From assembly GCA_030390025.1 (NCBI GenBank), contig CM059431.1:128962001-129026000 (forward strand): a stretch of DNA of 64,000 nt, written 5' to 3'. Shown here piece after piece: positions 1-45,617 of this stretch. The DNA is from Squalus acanthias. Lineage: Eukaryota. Every line of letters starts with the position of its first letter. Within the stretch, counting starts at the first letter, position 1. The notes beneath the pieces were generated by a model. That model made no database searches and was not told where the DNA came from. It worked only from the letters and a program-made list of their open reading frames with translations. A program made the position numbers and the translations under genes.

Positions 1-1637
1 TACACTCCTTCCTCCAGTGACCATCCTTCCCACACCCATAACAGTTAAGCTTTGTGCTGGAAGGGTTATTCCCCTCCTGATGCCACTCCTTCCTACTCTG
101 GCCGGGTTTTATCTCATGTACTTTCCCTTTTTGTGGGGGCTCTTCCGCCCCTCTCCCGTTCCGGTAGGCCAGGTTCAGCTGTCTGACCACTGCCTCTTCG
201 GTGCCCCGGGGGTCTTTCGGGTCAAACCAAAGCTCAGCCTGGGTTTTGATCCAAGGCAAGCTGTTTGCCACTAGGCTACGGAGCCAGTGGGCCAGCTCGT
301 CCCGGTTTATGTGAGCCCTATTAAGATCCCCACCACAAGCACCCCTGTACACGGGCCACAGCCTGTCTGCAAAAGCCTGTGGGGTCTCTCCTGCGAGCTG
401 CACTGTTTTCTCCACCCGGGAGAAAGGACTTTCCTCATTCATCCCCATTGCCTCTAAAACTTCCTCAGTGTTGGCCGCATACCCATTCTGTCCTCTCTTG
501 CTCTCAGCAGAGAGAGACTGATATAACCGGCTGTCCAGTGAGAACAGGAGCATTTTTGCCATCTCGGCATCGTCACAGCCGTTAATGCTTGCTGCCTGTT
601 CTATCTCTATGAAGTGAACTGAGGGGTCCCCTTGTTGGGTGAGTTTACTCAGGTGGCTTACCATAACCCTAAGCTGTTGTGTACCGTGGGGAGCCACGAA
701 CTGGCTTTGGAGGGGTCCCGCCTCCCCGTTATCAGCGGGTGGGCCAAATCTGTCCTGCCGGGCCGGGCACATCGGCCCCGGTCCCAGCCTCTCTTGCGGG
801 GTTTTTTTCCACCTCAGCTTCTGCCCCTAACTCCACCCCTTCTTCTTGCCAGACTGCGCTAAAGCTTGGCGCTATGGGTGGTGGTTGTGGGCCCTCCCGC
901 TCCTCAACCGGGTCGTCCCTTGGCGCTATCTTTGGTGTCTGAACCGTTCTCCCCAGGTTCCCTGTAAAGTCGACCTGGGCTGCACTTGGGCTTATGAGGC
1001 ACACCACGCCTCTTGCCTTCCTTAGAGCAAGGCTGAGACTCTCTATCTGCTTCTGGCAGGGGCCGTGGTCCGCACCCTCAAACCCCTGTGCGCTCATTAC
1101 CTTATAGGCTGCCTGTAAGCCTTTTACTGTCTCCTCCTGCTCTCTTACTTGTTTTGCCAGGCGGGCATTCTTTTCCCGCAACCTCAGCTCATTGTTCTTG
1201 GCCTCAGTGACCTGGCACTGTAAGTAATCCTGTCGGGTCTTGTGTTCCCCCACTAACTGCACCCTTTCCTGGTTTAGTGCCTGCAATGCTAACAGTAACT
1301 TCTCCCCTGCTAGGGCCTTCGTTTGGACTTCCAGGGCCGACTCCCGAATCTCGGCTGCCTGTGCTTCAACGAGTCTGTCCAAAAGTTGAATCTGTTTCTT
1401 GAAGCACATCAGCCAGACTGCCTTTTCTAAGGATTTTTTATGATCCTTCCCTTCTGTCCATTTAGCTGCTGCATCTACCGGGCGCCCAGTTTTTAATAGA
1501 TTAGTGACCCACTTCTTTTCCATATTCACTTTGCTGAATACATAATCTGAAATCCTCTCTTCCATTACAGTTCTCTCTTCTGAATCAGTGTCTACTGCTT
1601 CACAACCCTTTTGCCAAGTCTTTGCCACGGTCGCCAT
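1..1637 (-). CDS. gag: Gag polyprotein (coiled-coil N-terminus, capsid MHR, CCHC zinc knuckle) with one frameshift near 800
   Basis: ORF 1637-732, then a second frame read by hand from ~800 containing VQLAGETPQAFADRL (MHR-like). The knuckle CYGCGKDGHWRKEC (CX2CX4HX4C) at ~43-2 is in that same frame. Confidence 0.85.
1621..1636 (-). promoter_or_regulatory. Primer-binding site overlapping the gag start codon
   Basis: TGGCGACCGTGGCAAA lies 3 nt after the LTR-terminal CA. TGG is complementary to tRNA CCA, and the ATG is at 1637-1635. Confidence 0.7.
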
Positions 1638-1843
1638 TTTGTAAGGGTGTGGGTTGTGATAAGAGTCAGCCTTTCCCCTGACTCAGTGAGCGGTTCGAAT
1701 CGCTCCCACGCCCCAGGTTCAAAACTTGGACTTATTTAGGGGTTGTGAATAAAGATGCAGTAGACAACAGGTTCCGATTAAAGAATTATAACTTTTATTA
1801 AAGTTAAAAGGTAACAAACTTAAACACACTTCACACTTAAACA

Positions 1844-2352
1844 GGTTGGTTCTCTCACCACCTGCTGCAGGCCCAGACTGGCAGCTATGTCCTTCAGGAC
1901 TCGGCCAGGTCGGTCAGTAGTGTTGCTACCGAGCCAACCTTGGTGATGGACATTGAAGCTCTCCACCCAGAGTAAATTCTGTGCCCTTGCTACCCTCAGT
2001 GCTTCTTCCAAGTGGTGTTCAACATGGAGGAGAACTGATTCATCAGCTGAAGGAGGGCGGTAGGTGGTAATCAGCAGGAGGGTCCTTGCCCATGCTTGAC
2101 CTGAAGCCATGAGACTTCATGGGGTCCGGAGTCAATGTTGAGGACTCCCGGGGCCACTCCCTCCCTACTGTATACCACTGTGCCGCCCCCCCTGGTGGGT
2201 CTGTCCTGCCGGTTGGACAGGACATACCCAGGGATGGTGATGGAGGAATCTGGGACATTGGCTGAAAGGTATGATTCTGTGAGTATGACTATGTCAGACT
2301 GTTGCTTGACTAGTCTGTGCGACAGCTCTCCCATTTTTGACACAAGTCCCCA
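1844..2352 (-). mobile_element. LINE fragment, AP endonuclease region (same family as 31085-33960)
   Basis: DIVILTESYL...PGYVLSNRQDRPTRGGGTVVY and TTYRPPS motifs; clearly similar to 33390-33890. Confidence 0.85.
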
Positions 2353-2829
2353 CAAGTCTTCCTTAAAGGACTGGAGGAAGCATTCCTGATCCTCCTGGCC
2401 CACAAGGAGCACTGGAAAAGCCACTTACCCTGTGGACTGCCGGGTTTCCTGACCGCTGGGAAACCTGCGCAATAGCCGTGAATTTTAAATTGGGCTCCCA
2501 ATTGGTCTGTGGGAGCCCGATTTGAATATGTTAATGAAGTTTCCTGCCTCTACATGGCAGCACATTTGGATGCCATGATATCTACCGCCGTAGAATAGGG
2601 GGTGGACGTGTGTGCGGCGTGTTGGCGACGCATTCCGCATATATACATCTTTAACCAACCCCCCTCCCCGACCCTCTCCCGCCTGTCATGGGCGGGGGAG
2701 GGGGTTACTATTGAGGCCGTTAACGTTAAGGCAATCATTCTTTGAGCCAGAAAGTTAAGACCCTGGATGGCTCCTGGGAGATCAGAGCTGTCATTTACAG
2801 CCATGGCTCGAGATATATGTGCGGTTTTC

Positions 2830-11072: not shown

Positions 11073-11430
11073 CATGATGTGGAGATGCCGGCGTTGGACT
11101 GGGGTGGACAAAAATGAGAAGTCGCACAACACCAGGTTATAGTCCAACAGATTTATTTAATTTTACAAGCTTTCGGAGCTGTTCGCTCCTTCCTCAGGTA
11201 GGTTGGCAGTGAGAGAATCTCCCAGAATTCACAATTTAAACATCTTGGCTGTGCTCTTAGTGTGTCTTTGATGTCGGGAAAGATTTGAATAGATTTTGTC
11301 TGTGTTTAAATTGTGAATTCTGGGAGATTCTCTCACTGCTAACCTACCTGAGGAAGGAGCGAACAGCTCCGAAAGCTTGTAAAATTAAATAAATCTGTTG
11401 GACTATAACCTGGTGTTGTGCGACTTCTCA
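11073..11430. mobile_element. Penelope-like fold-back insertion (inverted pseudo-LTRs) with hammerhead motifs
   Basis: 128-bp inverted arms 11115-11242 and 11303-11430. TSD TCTCAATTAGTGTG at 11059-11072 and 11426-11439. Same termini as 26274-27190. Confidence 0.85.
11345..11382 (+). ncRNA. Minimal type I hammerhead ribozyme (mirror copy on the minus strand at ~11165-11201)
   Basis: tac-CTGAGGA-a-ggagc..gctcc-GAAA-gctt-gta: catalytic core, stem II and palindromic AAGCTT stem III. Confidence 0.75.
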
Positions 11431-12354
11431 ATTAGTGTGGTTTCCACTGAGGTCTTTCAAGGACATAATTGAAACAATTTTCAGAGAAAACACAGGCGCT
11501 CCCCTTATACGCCATCTTAATGTTGGGGGTGGGGGGGGGCGCGCGGAGTTGGGCAAGGATTGACCCATGTTTCCCTGACAGGAGTGTAAAAATCCAGTGC
11601 TAATCGGGCCAAATCCCAGCATGGCTGGTTTCTGATCCATACTTTGGGCCTCCTAACTGGGCATAAATGTGACTTAGGCCCTCTCCAGTCCCAGGAATTT
11701 TGGGGTATATGTCTCTCAATCAAACTCTTCTACCTGCTCCCTGCCTTTCCCTCAGATCACTACTGGTACAACTTTTTCCCCACTTCGCACTCATGCTTTT
11801 TCGGTGAAAGAAGCAAATGGAGGAAAATATAATCCATGGGAAAATATTGGCCTAGAAATTAGTCCACACAGCGCCCATTTTGCGGCCACTACCCGGAGTA
11901 CTAAGGCCCCAATATGGCGGGCAGGAAGCGTGCACACATTTCTGGCCTGCATTGCAGCACATGCCATATTGGGTAACGATAAAAAATATGCACCCTGTAC
12001 CCACGCCTGAAACAGGCATTAGGACCTTTGCATATGCACATAAGGGTCAACGCTTGTTTGAGGCCACATCTCCAAGATTGGTTTGTCCTGAGGATAAGAC
12101 TGGTTTGTCCTGCACTCAAGGAAACCAGGCCCAATCAAGAAGGTAAGTAACTTCCCTAAATATGGAGGCAGGAGGAGCAGGAATCCCCCTCCCAATCCCA
12201 CATTAAAGGAACCGTTGCTCCCGGCTCCGACCTCCAATTACCCCCACTTCCGGCCCCGACCCCCAATCTCATGGCCTGACCCCCGGTCTCCCCTGCTCGG
12301 TGTTTGTGAGTGACAAGAAGAAATTGTGCCTTTGAAGAACTGAAAAGTAAAACA

Positions 12355-26273: not shown

Positions 26274-27190
26274 AGATGCCGGCGTTGGACTGGGGTGGAC
26301 AAAAATGAGAAGTCGCACAACACCAGGTTATAGTCCAACAGATTTATTTAAAATTACAAGCTTTCGGAGCTATCGCCCCTTTTTCAGGTAAAGTTACAAT
26401 GAGTGAATCTACAAAAGTTCACAGAATATAAACACAGAAAATGCAGAGATACAATCTTTCCTTACATCAAAGACACACCAAGAGCACAGCCAAGACAATG
26501 AGATGTGTCCCAGGGGGTCCAACGTGTCAAATCCTGCTGTCTGCAGCAGATCTCTCTCCATATCCCTTCCTCTCTCTCCGTCCTTTTTGTGTTTGTTTTT
26601 TGTGTTTGTTTTTTTGTGTTTGTTTTTTAAAAACTGGAAAGACAGACAACGATGTCAAGTCACGTTCTGTAGCGTGACATGAACCCGATATCCCGATATC
26701 GGATCTGCGGGTTAGCGTTCTCCAAGGCGGCCTTCGAGACACACGACAACGCAAAATCATCGAGCAGAAACTGATAGCCAAGTTCCGCACTCATGAGGAC
26801 GGCCTCAATAGGGATATCGGGTTCATGTCACGCTACAGAACGTGACTTGACATCGTTGTCTGTCTTTCCAGTTTTTAAGAAACAAACACAAAAAACAAAC
26901 CCAAAAAGGACGGAGAGAGAGGAAGGGATATGGAGAGAGATCTGCTGCAGACAGCAGGATTTGACACGTTGGACCCCCTGGGACACATCTCATTGTCTTG
27001 GCTGTGCTCTTGGTGTGTCTTTGATGTAAGGAAAGATTGTATCTCTGCATTTTTTGTGTTTATATTCTGTGAACTTTTGTAGATTCACTCATTGTAACTT
27101 TACCTGAAGAAGGGGCGATAGCTCCGAAAGCTTGTAATTTTAAATAAATCTGTTGGACTATAACCTGGTGTTGTGCGACTTCTCATTTTT
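26274..27190. mobile_element. Penelope-like insertion with ~390-bp inverted repeats
   Basis: Arms 26301-26694 and 26811-27190. The spacer encodes a GIY-YIG C-terminus (DLRVSVLQGGLRDTRQRKIIEQKLIAKFRTHEDGLNRD). TSD TATATAATTGCAG. Hammerhead core CTGAAGA..GAAA at ~27103-27130. Confidence 0.9.
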
Positions 27191-31084: not shown

Positions 31085-33960
31085 TAAAAAATGTTTTTTT
31101 TATTAATTCTCGGGATGTGGGCGCCGCTAGAAAAGCCAACATTTATTGCCCATCCCTAGTTGCCCTTGAGAAGCTAGTACTAAGCCTTCTTCTTGAGCTG
31201 CTGAAGTCCATGTGGTGAAGATACTCCCACTGTGCTGTTAGGTAGGGAGTTCCAGGACTTTGATCCAGCGACGATGAAGGAATGGCGATTTCTGTCCAAT
31301 TTGGACTAGTGTGTGACTTGGAGAAAGAACTGGAGGTGATGTGCTTGCTGCCCTTGTCCTTCTCGCTGTTAGAGGTCACGGGTTTGTGAGGTGCTGACGA
31401 AGAAGACTTGGCGAATTCCTGCTGTGCATCCTATAAGTTGGACATGTTGCAGCCATGGTGTGTCGGTGATGGAGGGAGTGAATGTTTGAGGTGGTGGTTG
31501 AGCTGCTAATCAAGCAGGGCTCTTTGTCCTTGATGATGGTGAGCTTCTTGAATGTTTTTGCAGCTACACCCATCCAGCCAAGTGGGGAGTATTCCATCAC
31601 ACTCCTAACTTATGCCTTGTAGGTGATGGAGAGTCAGGAGGTGAGTCACTCACCCCAGAATACCCAGCCTCTGACCTGCTCTAGTAGCCACAGCAGTGTT
31701 GTGGCTGGTCCATTTGAGGTTCTGGTCAATGGCACCACCAGGATGTTGATGGTGGAGGATTCGGCAGTGGTGATGCCATTGGATGTCAATGAGAGGTGGC
31801 TGGATTTTCTCTTGTTGGAGATAGTCATTGCCTGGCACTTGTGTTTCGCAAATGTAACTTGCCACTGATCAACACAAGCTTGGATGTTGTCCAGGTTTTG
31901 CTGCATGCTTCATTGTCTGAGGAATTGTGAATAGAGCTGATCAGTGCGCAATTATCAGTGAACATTCCCACTTCTGACCTTATGATGGAAGGAAGGTCAT
32001 TGATAAAGCAGCTGACAATCTTTGGCCTAGGATGCAGCCCTGAGGAACTCCTGCAGCAATGACCTGTTGCTGAGATGATTGACCTCCAACAACCACAACT
32101 ATCTTCCTTTGTGCTAGGAATTATTCCAGCCAGAGGAGAGTTTTCTCCCAATCCCCATTGACTTCAATTTTACTCGGGCTCCTTGGTGCCACACTCAGTC
32201 AAATGCTGCCTTGATGTCAAGGGTGGTCACTCTCACCTCACCTTTGTTTCAGTTCTTTTGTTCATGTTTGAACCAAGGCTGTAATGAGATTTGGAGCTCT
32301 GTGGTCCTGGTGGAACCCAAACTGAGCATCGGTGAGCAGGTTATTCATGAGTAAGTGCAGCTTGATAGCACTGTCGATGACAACTTCCATCTGCTGATGA
32401 TTGAGAGTATGTAGATAAGATGGTAACTGGCTGGGTTGGATTCATCTGTTTTTTATGGATAGGATATACCTGGGCAATTTTCCACATTGTCGGGTAGATG
32501 CCAGTGTTGTAGCTGTACTGGAACAGTTTAGCTAGTGGCATGGCTAGTTCTGGAGCACAGGTCTTCAGCACTACAGCTGGAATGTTGTCAGGACCCGTAG
32601 CCTTTGCTGTGTCCAGTGGACTCAGCCGTTTCTTAATATCATGTGGAGTAAATCTAATTGACTGGAGACTGGCATCTGTGATGGTGGGAACCTCAGGAGG
32701 AGGCAGAGAAGGATCATCCACTCGGCACTTCTGGCTGAAGATGGTTGCAAACACTTCAGCCTTGTCTTTTCCATTCACACACCAGGCTCCACCATCCTTG
32801 AGGATGGGGATGTTCATGGAACTTCCTCCTCCCGACAGTTGTTTAATTATCCACCACCATTCACGACTGGATGTGGCAGGATTGCAGAGCTTTGACCTGA
32901 TCCATTGATTGTGGGATCACTTAGCTCTGTCTATAGCACGCTGTTTCTGCTGTTGAGCATGCATGTAGTCCTGTGTTGCAGCTTCACCAGGTTAGCACCT
33001 CATTTTCAGGTACGCTTGGTGCTACTCCTGGCATGCTCTTCTACACTCCTCACTGAATCAGGGTTGGTCATCTGGCTTGATGGTAATGGTAGAGTGAGGG
33101 AAATGCCGGACCATGAGGTTACAGATTGCGGTGGAATTCATGATTGCTGCGGCTGATGCCACAAAGTGCCTCATGGATGCCCAGTTTTGAGCGGCTAGAT
33201 CTATTCTTAATCTATCCCATTTAGCACGATGGTAGTGCCACGTCACATGACACAATGGAGGATATTCTCAGTGTGAAGGTGGGACTTGGTCTCCACAAGG
33301 ACTGTGCAGTGGTCACCCCTATCAATAATGTCATGGACAATTGCATCTGCGACAGGTAGATTGGTGAGGATGATGTCAAGTATGTTATTTCCTGTGTTGG
33401 TTCTCTCACCACCTACCGCAAGCCCAGTCTGGATCTATATCCTCCAGGACTCAGCCAAGCTCGTTCAGCGGTGGTGCTACGGAGCCACTCTTGGTGAAGG
33501 ACATTGAAGAACCCCACCCAGAGTATATTCTGTGCCCTTACTACCCTCAGTGCTTCCTCCAACTGGTGTTCAACATGAAGGATTACTAATTCATCAGCTG
33601 AGGGAGGGTGGTAGGTGGCAATCAGCAGGTGGTTTCCTTGCCCATGTTTGACCTGAAGCCATGAGACTTCATGAGGTCTGAAGTCAATGTTGAGGACTCC
33701 CAGGGCCACTCCCAACTGATTGTATATCACTATGCCGCCACCTCTGGTGAGTCTGTCCTGACGGTGGGACAGGACATACCCAGGGATGGTGATGGAGGAG
33801 TCTTGGACGTTGGCTGGTAAGTATGATTCTGTGGGTATGACTATGTCAGGCTGATGCTTGACTGGTCTGTGGGACCGCCCTCCCAACCAGTCCCCAGATG
33901 TTGGTGAGGAGGATTTTTCAGGGTTGACTGGGCTGGGTGTGCCTTTGTTATTGGATTTAT
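31085..33960 (-). mobile_element. Degenerate near-full ORF2 LINE (APE plus RT, A-rich tail), distinct from the CR1 family in this window
   Basis: PDIVIPTESYL, KATGPDNIPAVVLKTCAPELA..MWKIAQVYPIHKK, GVPQG and GMFTDNC motifs. A-rich 3' end at ~31095-31105. Confidence 0.88.
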
Positions 33961-45542: not shown

Positions 45543-45617
45543 GGCTCCGTGGCTTAGTTGGTCAAAGCGCCTGTCTAGTATACTAGGAGAGCCTGGGTTC
45601 GATTCGTAGCGGGGCAT
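45543..45617 (+). tRNA. tRNA-Thr(AGT), probable pseudogene
   Basis: GGCTCCGTGGCTTAGTTGGTCAAAGCGCCTGTCTAGT..GGGTTCGATT..GCGGGGC followed by a T-run. One insertion in the anticodon stem and T-stem mismatches. Confidence 0.85.

What the first reader, a model, noticed from the sequence alone, without database searches (positions are those of the whole stretch)
1640..1735. tRNA-like T-loop fold at the U5 end of an LTR, next to the PBS
Seen: on the plus strand (antisense to the element, i.e. the minus strong-stop strand) GGGTGTGG (1645-52) pairs with CCACGCCC (1706-13). This stem encloses a hairpin GAGTCAG/CTGACTC and a hairpin GAGCGG-TTCGAA-TCGCTC that directly abuts it. It is followed by CA and a second hairpin CCAGG-TTCAAAA-CTTGG. 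This resembles an acceptor stem stacked on a T arm, and its G-T pairs work only on this strand. Inference: a conserved cis-element. Options are a tRNA mimic, a TFIIIC B-box or Pol III unit, or a sense-strand TCGAACC/TTGAACC primer-activation signal pairing with the primer tRNA T arm, analogous to the HIV-1 PAS and the RSV U5-tRNA contact.
Basis: partly seen in the sequence, partly recalled or inferred. Interest (0 to 1): 0.72.

Follow-up and report, generated by a model that had tools for sequence, protein, structure and literature searches.

The report
Retroviral primer-docking RNA fold in LTR
The tRNA-like shape is real, but it is most likely the mirror image of a fold in an endogenous retrovirus's own RNA that holds its arginine-tRNA primer in place, a known retroviral device seen here with unusually clear natural base-pair swaps and one extra, unexplained hairpin.

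Summary
The stems are at the stated places, at the 3' end of the 5' LTR of an endogenous retrovirus primed by tRNA-Arg(TCG). The motif recurs 17,363 times against 57 for the control. The antisense tRNA-mimic reading fails: canonical T-arm register gives 2 of 5 pairs in 41 of 42 copies, CCA is subfamily-specific, and an A-box is seen in 2 of 57. U5 (1721-1729) pairs with the PBS end and leader (1614-1620) and swaps bases across subfamilies: 62 sense G.U cells against 5 A.C in 568. This matches the retroviral PBS segment, with GAACC (1716-1720) at the primer-activation position; a relative primed by tRNA-Arg(ACG) keeps a similar site there. The apical UCGAACC loop is unresolved: second tRNA contact, dimer palindrome or B-box. 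The tRNA contacts are inferred, not shown. The scan reported this motif before, in a solo LTR of this genome (e1-7805577), with the same reading.

The parts
1640..1847 (-). 3' remnant (208 nt) of the 5' LTR, ending in CA at 1640; full LTRs of the family are about 930 nt
   Evidence: 6 mismatches in 208 nt to the same element's 3' LTR
1618..1636 (-). Primer-binding site for tRNA-Arg(TCG): 14 nt pair (one U.G), then one extra base and one mismatch in this copy
   Evidence: host tRNA gene; comparison; exact complements in sister subfamilies
1614..1620 (-). 3' arm of the U5-leader helix (last 3 nt of the PBS plus leader)
1721..1729 (-). 5' (U5) arm of the U5-leader helix
   Evidence: covariation across subfamilies
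1714..1723 (-). Site 1: complement of primer tRNA nt 50-59 (core GAACC 1720-1716), at the PAS-like position directly 3' of the U5-leader arm
   Evidence: duplex -13.2 kcal/mol with tRNA 47-58; GAACC in 68 of 71 junctions
1706..1714 (-).
1645..1652 (-). P1 3' arm, ending 4 nt before the LTR end
1688..1705 (-). P2 hairpin; site 2 loop UCGAACC (1698-1692) complements tRNA nt 52-58, holds the palindrome TTCGAA, and reads as a B-box on the + strand
   Evidence: GAGCG/CGCTC in family A, GAGTG/CACTC in family B; duplex energies; no substitution shown for 1675-1714 in contigs of 4 runs
1663..1684 (-). P3 hairpin, variable: replaced by a longer multi-hairpin insert in family B, largely deleted in one contig type
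1768..1774 (-). Site 3: a further GAACCTG complementary to the tRNA T arm
1794..1799 (-). AATAAA, probable polyadenylation signal (basis for calling the region U5; inferred)
   Evidence: sequence
732..1637 (-). First gag frame; its first ATG (1637-1635) overlaps the start of the PBS; the Cys-His box lies in a second frame (2-826)

Best explanation
The region is the PBS segment of the genomic RNA of an endogenous retrovirus lineage primed by tRNA-Arg(TCG), and the tRNA-like fold on the + strand is its mirror image. Shown by sequence comparison: a U5-leader helix closes a loop holding site 1 (GAACC), the long U5 stem P1 with hairpins P2 and P3, and the PBS. Inferred: when the tRNA anneals over nt 59-76 it opens the top of the U5-leader helix and frees its own T arm (nt 50-58). 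That arm pairs with site 1, making a three-way junction next to the primer, as proposed for HIV-1 PAS/anti-PAS and the avian U5-T-psi-C contact. Inferred with less support: the P2 loop, complementary to tRNA nt 52-58, is a second or earlier docking site for the T loop.
For: PBS matches a host tRNA-Arg(TCG) gene. U5-leader arms change together: CCAAAGTC/GACTTTGG 15, CCAAGGTC/GACCTTGG 12, CCAGTGTC/GACACTGG 5, CCAAGTTT/GACTTGG 20 of 71 junctions; mean duplex -9.87 against -7.0 for shuffled partners, 0 of 2000 shuffles reach it. Sense-strand cells: 490 Watson-Crick, 62 G.U, 5 A.C, 11 other of 568; among 24 distinct arm pairs 22 G.U against 4 A.C. One arm lies outside the LTR, so the helix cannot form in minus strong-stop DNA or in a solo LTR (inference). 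P1 arms pair better within a family (-12.7, -11.6) than swapped (-8.7, -8.3). The three best complements of tRNA 47-58 in the 932 nt before the PBS all lie within 140 nt of it, in 2 of 2 copies scanned (noticed after the fact). Family C, primed by tRNA-Arg(ACG), has its own U5-leader helix (MFE in 2 of 4 copies) followed by TCGATCCTG in 4 of 5 copies (by eye). Family D has the helix in 2 of 2. Precedent: PMC3185550, PMC11181671 (passages and section 7), PMC5066621 and PMC8191761 (abstracts).
Against: No experiment: the tRNA contacts rest on complementarity to a sequence that nearly all tRNAs share. Outside this subfamily site 1 keeps only 5 nt (GAACC); the three bases after it vary. Family C has a U.U mismatch and family D (Lys-type PBS, recalled) has no clear site. 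None of 53 cluster representatives of unrelated Arg(TCG)-PBS loci has TCGAACC in 130 nt upstream, and GAACC appears in 5, about chance, so the motif is lineage-specific. Copies are related and include duplicates, so the shuffle count is not a probability. For 40 of the 71 junctions the outer three pairs were fixed by the search pattern. PMC3185550 reports that the HIV PAS conclusions were disputed. P1 alone is slightly more stable as the mirror image in family A (-14.1 against -12.7).
Confidence: 0.7

Rival explanations
1. The P2 loop is a dimer-initiation (kissing) palindrome of the genomic RNA, and its likeness to a T loop is incidental. This is compatible with the PBS-segment reading for the rest.
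For: The loop holds TTCGAA (family A and part of B) or TCGA (rest of B); self-duplex -5.1 and -3.7 kcal/mol. The gag frame can start at the PBS, leaving little leader for such a signal (inference). Kissing palindromes in retroviral hairpin loops are recalled knowledge.
Against: The bases after the palindrome (AC, then C) are kept in both families and complete the tRNA 52-58 complement. In the GG-type B loops only 4 bp would form.
Confidence: 0.2
2. Site 2 works in double-stranded DNA as a TFIIIC B-box (insulator, chromatin or targeting role) carried by thousands of LTRs.
For: It fits GTTCRANNC (consensus recalled) in 42 of 42 copies, partly by construction of the search, and the two positions that vary between families are the two free positions of that consensus.
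Against: The same two positions face tRNA nt 59-60, which the PBS already takes, so the primer model predicts them too. A DNA site does not need the compensated stem around it. The loop CpG decays like its neighbours: 202 variants against 193 and 259 for the stem CpGs, with 3,368 unchanged. Site 1 fits the B-box in only 20 of 42.
Confidence: 0.08
3. An antisense RNA or the minus strong-stop DNA folds into a tRNA top-half mimic (acceptor plus T arm) that RNase P/Z or another T-loop reader recognises, or it is a Pol III unit.
For: The fold is 2-3 kcal/mol more stable on the + strand on average. G.U or G-C closes the UUCGA loop in both families, and P2 abuts P1 in family A. This subfamily has CCA and a second canonical T-arm-like hairpin. 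P3 is dispensable, which would leave a minihelix.
Against: Canonical T-arm register fails in 42 of 42 (2 or 3 of 5 pairs). CCA is absent from 13 of 34 A and 8 of 8 B copies, and 1715 A>T is the majority letter by depth in 4 of 4 runs. Stacked stem length differs by family. A-box in 2 of 57; the first T4 lies 57 nt or more away and is absent within 300 nt in 7 of 8 B copies. ARAGORN and Rfam find nothing here. One-sided stem variants show no clear strand preference (193 against 259). The second hairpin's bases are used by the covarying sense helix.
Confidence: 0.05
4. The stems are functional but the loop sequence is only inherited and has no partner.
For: Only two main LTR families carry site 2, and they share other U5 words as well. 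Families C and D lack the hairpin.
Against: The loop stays fixed while the stem pair, P1 and the whole insert beside it have changed, and it is the least variable stretch in contigs of two organisms.
Confidence: 0.1

Closest known systems
[quoted passage not shown]
   Same: A helix between U5 and sequence 3' of the PBS closes a junction that holds a U5 hairpin domain and the PBS; a U5 sequence is complementary to the T-psi-C arm of the primer.
   Different: Primer is tRNA-Arg(TCG). Here site 1 lies just 3' of the helix arm, not inside it. There are three complementary sites, one in a hairpin loop. HIV's tRNA-like element mimics the anticodon arm on the sense strand, whereas the T-loop likeness here is on the opposite strand.
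Avian sarcoma/leukosis virus U5 to T-psi-C loop contact with tRNA-Trp (as cited in PMC3185550 and PMC3592414 passages; the names U5-leader stem and U5-IR stem and their layout are recalled, the primary papers were not held)
   Same: Order of parts: U5-leader helix, T-loop-complementary site, U5 stem, PBS.
   Different: The U5 stem here branches into P2 and a variable insert; gag may start at the PBS.
Ty1 extended PBS boxes with tRNA-iMet (PMC3592414 passages)
   Same: Extra complementarity to the primer outside the PBS; PBS region overlapping the gag frame.
   Different: Ty1 has a 10-nt PBS and no env; the contacts here lie upstream, in U5.
Shark endogenous retroviruses, snakehead-like and epsilon-like lineages (PMC4422223, part 1 of 2 read); lokiretroviruses (PMC7947760, section 5, passages, supplement searched)
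   Same: LTR-gag-(pol)-extra coiled-coil ORF-env layout; tether plus RNase H in a pol-bearing sister copy; nearest RT relatives are named from Heptranchias and Latimeria.
   Different: No PF00523 fusion-protein hit for env. The best solved-structure RT matches are murine-leukaemia-type (identity partly recalled from entry names). Genus not settled: no tree with reference viruses could be built.

Membership tests
Retroviral PBS segment with PAS-type contact | PBS complementary to the 3' 18 nt of a host tRNA directly after the LTR end | tested here: met
Retroviral PBS segment with PAS-type contact | Helix between U5 and sequence 3' of the PBS on the genomic strand | tested here: met
   covariation and G.U bias
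Retroviral PBS segment with PAS-type contact | U5 sequence complementary to the primer T-psi-C arm | tested here: met
   10 nt in this subfamily, 5-nt core in 68 of 71 junctions
Retroviral PBS segment with PAS-type contact | The site changes with the primer tRNA | tested here: inconclusive
   Arg(ACG) family keeps 8 of 9 pairs, but both tRNAs share that stretch; the Lys-type family shows no clear site
Retroviral PBS segment with PAS-type contact | The contact forms and promotes initiation of reverse transcription | not testable with these tools
   needs probing and primer extension
tRNA mimic / tRNA-like structure | T arm of 5 bp closing a 7-nt loop | tested here: not met
   2 of 5 pairs in 41 of 42 copies
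tRNA mimic / tRNA-like structure | Constant acceptor-plus-T length with a conserved 3' CCA or discriminator | tested here: not met
   CCA in 21 of 42 copies; stem lengths differ
tRNA mimic / tRNA-like structure | Detected by tRNA models | tested here: not met
Type 2 Pol III unit | B-box consensus | tested here: met
   42 of 42, partly by construction
Type 2 Pol III unit | A-box upstream and T4 terminator close downstream | tested here: not met
   A-box 2 of 57; T4 at 57 nt or more, or absent
Isolated TFIIIC site | TFIIIC occupancy | not testable with these tools
   only indirect: CpG not spared
Retroviridae (ERV) | LTRs, gag with Cys-His box, pol with RT-tether-RNase H-integrase, env-like ORF with basic cleavage site | tested here: met
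   pol seen only in a sister copy, not in the window's element
Lokiretrovirus | Env with detectable similarity to PF00523 | tested here: not met
   no hit at E<=0.1; no solved-structure match
Lokiretrovirus | RT sister to all retroviruses in a tree | not tested
   no reference set held
Foamy viruses | Gag without Cys-His box (PMC5210030 passage) | tested here: not met
   zf-CCHC match, weak but with a full motif

The most novel reading that the evidence does not exclude
The P2 hairpin is dual-use. Besides the sense-strand role, its opposite strand is read as a real T loop or B-box: either a non-canonical acceptor-T minihelix on the nascent minus strand or an antisense RNA, or a TFIIIC site spread by some 17,000 LTR copies. 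That would be a retrovirus using a host tRNA-recognition signal at its LTR end.
Probability: 0.1. Interest if true: 0.7.

Novelty: new variant of a known kind. Interest (0 to 1): 0.36.

Why it matters
PAS-type contacts are argued from a few lab viruses and have been disputed. Here thousands of natural copies in several subfamilies show the closing helix by compensatory change, in a deep-branching fish retrovirus lineage, which suggests the layout is old. The apical loop that complements the primer T loop has no counterpart in the papers seen, and its role can be tested on a short synthetic RNA. The finding does not establish a new tRNA mimic.

Tried and rejected
ARAGORN and Rfam: nothing at the site. 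Lokiretrovirus lead: the paper's main text has no 'primer' or 'tRNA'; TCGAACC places 1-32 of 35 in its supplement (file cut when stored) looked like coding sequence by eye, so no support for the motif there. Gag homolog search: none at E<=1e-5. Viral contigs: nothing by RT or PBS pattern. Of 12 stretches upstream of more distant RT matches, 7 gave usable LTR-PBS junctions (families C and D); 5 gave none. One-sided CpG variants as a strand test: no clear bias. Complementarity of P3 to the primer anticodon arm, seen by eye in some A subfamilies, is absent from family B and P3 can be lost: rejected as general. Expression: no RNA holder listed; the contigs laid cannot show strand or ends. Earlier-findings search by sequence: nothing. 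Literature searches for a B-box or tRNA-like element in such LTRs returned nothing relevant; subscription papers are not covered, and three primary PAS/avian papers were not held. No R-scape-type statistic was available; pair counts were made in scripts.

Full report
Setting. The window lies in a 3.7-Gb genome. The nearest named relatives of the element's reverse transcriptase are from Heptranchias and Latimeria, which points to a cartilaginous fish (inference). The finding sits on an LTR element that reads on the minus strand. Its 5' LTR survives as 208 nt (1847 to 1640), cut off by a LINE fragment that begins at 1845. Sister copies have LTRs of about 930 nt from TG to CA. The window's copy has a 3' LTR that differs at 6 of the 208 shared bases. 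Inside are gag with a Cys-His box, a coiled-coil ORF and an env-like ORF with a basic cleavage site; no pol motif was found in this copy, while one of four sister stretches carries RT, a tether RNase H, RNase H and integrase. It is an endogenous retrovirus of unsettled genus: env has no PF00523 match, unlike lokiretroviruses (PMC7947760 section 5), and gag has the Cys-His box that foamy viruses lack (PMC5210030, passage).

Primer. The 19 nt after the LTR end and three A's (1636-1618) complement the 3' end of a host tRNA-Arg(TCG) gene (426 pattern matches; ARAGORN). This subfamily has one U.G pair and one extra base in 17 of 17 anchored copies out of 20 examined; other subfamilies match the tRNA exactly.

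The observation. The motif pair GAACC ... TCGAACC recurs 17,363 times in the genome against 57 for the reversed control, in at least two LTR families. Family A is the window's; family B has a different long stem (GTAAGGG/CCCTTAC), the hairpin GAGTG/CACTC in place of GAGCG/CGCTC, and a longer insert in place of P3. P1 arms pair better within a family than swapped. In contigs of four runs from two organisms no substitution is shown between 1675 and 1714 (40 rows shown, 6 not shown), while the flanks vary and one contig type lacks most of P3. So a conserved single-strand structure is real.

The antisense mimic fails. Both strands fold the same mirror-image junction: z -1.93 and -2.15. Among 37 distinct U5 ends the antisense z is the better one in 14 of 29 A-type and 0 of 8 B-type (three ends were mis-trimmed). 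The T hairpin is 6 bp with a 6-nt loop; in tRNA register it keeps 2 of 5 pairs in 41 of 42 copies. CCA follows the stem in 21 of 34 A and 0 of 8 B copies. An A-box was found in 2 of 57 instances, and no T4 lies closer than 57 nt. The second hairpin is complete in 24 of 92 copies, nearly all of this subfamily. One-sided stem variants number 193 (tolerated on the sense strand) and 259 (tolerated on the antisense strand) against 3,368 unchanged, which looks like plain CpG decay and favours neither strand clearly. In favour of the mimic: the + strand fold is 2-3 kcal/mol more stable on average, and the pair that closes the loop is G-C or G.U on that strand in both families.

What fixes the strand. 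Sense 1729-1721 pairs with 1620-1614, the end of the PBS plus the first leader bases. In 71 LTR-PBS junctions the arms change together: CCAAGTTT/GACTTGG 20, CCAAAGTC/GACTTTGG 15, CCAAGGTC/GACCTTGG 12, CCAGTGTC/GACACTGG 5, and 15 rarer types. The mean duplex is -9.87 kcal/mol against -7.0 (sd 0.26) for shuffled partners, reached by 0 of 2000 shuffles. Of 568 cells, 490 are Watson-Crick, 62 G.U, 5 A.C and 11 other on the sense strand; among 24 distinct arm pairs, 22 G.U against 4 A.C. The helix is in the MFE of 8 of 8 junctions folded. Caveats: the copies are related and some are duplicates. Forty junctions were picked by hand from the first 100 of 155 matches to a pattern that fixed the outer three pairs. 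Nine B junctions were picked from the first 100 of 2,561 matches to a pattern that fixed neither arm. Since one arm lies beyond the LTR, the helix can form in genomic RNA but not in minus strong-stop DNA or solo LTRs.

Mechanism. Shown: the helix, P1, P2 and the PBS. Inferred: tRNA annealing over nt 59-76 takes the top three pairs of the helix and frees tRNA nt 50-58. Site 1, directly 3' of the U5 arm, pairs with them (-13.2 kcal/mol; GAACC in 68 of 71), giving a three-way junction. [quoted passage not shown] The three best complements of tRNA 47-58 in 932 nt all fall within 140 nt of the PBS in both copies scanned. Relatives with other primers keep the layout. Family C, whose PBS matches tRNA-Arg(ACG), has its own helix (MFE in 2 of 4) followed by TCGATCCTG in 4 of 5 copies. 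Family D, with a Lys-type PBS (recalled), has the helix in 2 of 2 but no clear site.

The open point is site 2, the P2 loop (intact in 56 of 71 junctions). Its fixed part complements exactly the tRNA bases left free by the PBS (52-58), and the two bases that vary face 59-60. But a B-box predicts the same pattern, and the loop also holds a palindrome (self-duplex -5.1 or -3.7). The loop CpG is not spared from decay (202 variants), which argues mildly against host occupancy. Of the three, I rank a tRNA contact first, a dimer signal second and a B-box third.

Prior art. Searches for a B-box or tRNA-like element in such LTRs gave nothing relevant; a study of LTR structure has no 'B box' or 'polymerase III' in its main text (PMC3601003, passages). 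Three primary papers were not held, so the avian layout is partly recalled. The only supplement searched was that of PMC7947760 (cut when stored).

Verdict: real and conserved, a variant of the known retroviral PBS segment; the antisense tRNA mimic is unlikely. Interest 0.36.

Noticed in passing
window 1637-1618 (minus strand): The first ATG of the gag frame overlaps the start of the PBS, so the PBS could code the first Gag residues and the element would have no leader; a second ATG lies 24 codons further on. The same overlap is seen in the other A and B subfamilies.
   Followed up: partly
window 1618-1636 and L002-L024: This subfamily's PBS differs from the tRNA in the same way (one U.G, one extra base) in 17 of 17 anchored copies, while a few copies with the same U5 match the tRNA length (L224-L228, L231). 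This bears on whether the PBS is recopied from the primer.
   Followed up: partly
L041 and L042-L044: The window's element and three sister stretches show gag, a second coiled-coil ORF resembling the gag N-terminal part (by eye) and env, but no pol motif: an apparently non-autonomous form.
   Followed up: partly
L045:7916-9808: Env-like ORF with weak Ig-domain hits (E 0.01-0.036, below the Pfam cut-off) and no solved-structure match.
   Followed up: partly
L005 about 1000-1370: A family B LTR is inserted inside a family A LTR.
   Followed up: no
L143, L145, L156, L199: Unrelated LTR-like metagenome loci carry a second, partial copy of their PBS inside U5, 40-70 nt upstream of the real one.
   Followed up: no
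L118 and L167 clusters (27 loci): Two related metagenome LTR families keep GAACCAGAA about 30 nt before an Arg(TCG) PBS, possibly an independent PAS-like site.
   Followed up: no
L032-L040 (G000 C26): Large tandem arrays (1,623-nt period) of intron-bearing tRNA-Arg(TCG) genes with tRNA-Ser(GCT) genes; only 2 exact matches for tRNA-Arg(ACG) by the pattern used.
   Followed up: no
window 45543-45617: A tRNA-Thr(AGT) gene or tRNA-derived repeat head.
   Followed up: no
window 26301-27190 and 11112-11433: Long, nearly perfect inverted repeats (314 nt at 99%, 131 nt at 98%) built from one repeat family.
   Followed up: no
window 1845-2424: LINE endonuclease fragment (type recalled as CR1/L2-like) abutting the truncated LTR; a second copy lies at 33458-33885.
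   Followed up: partly
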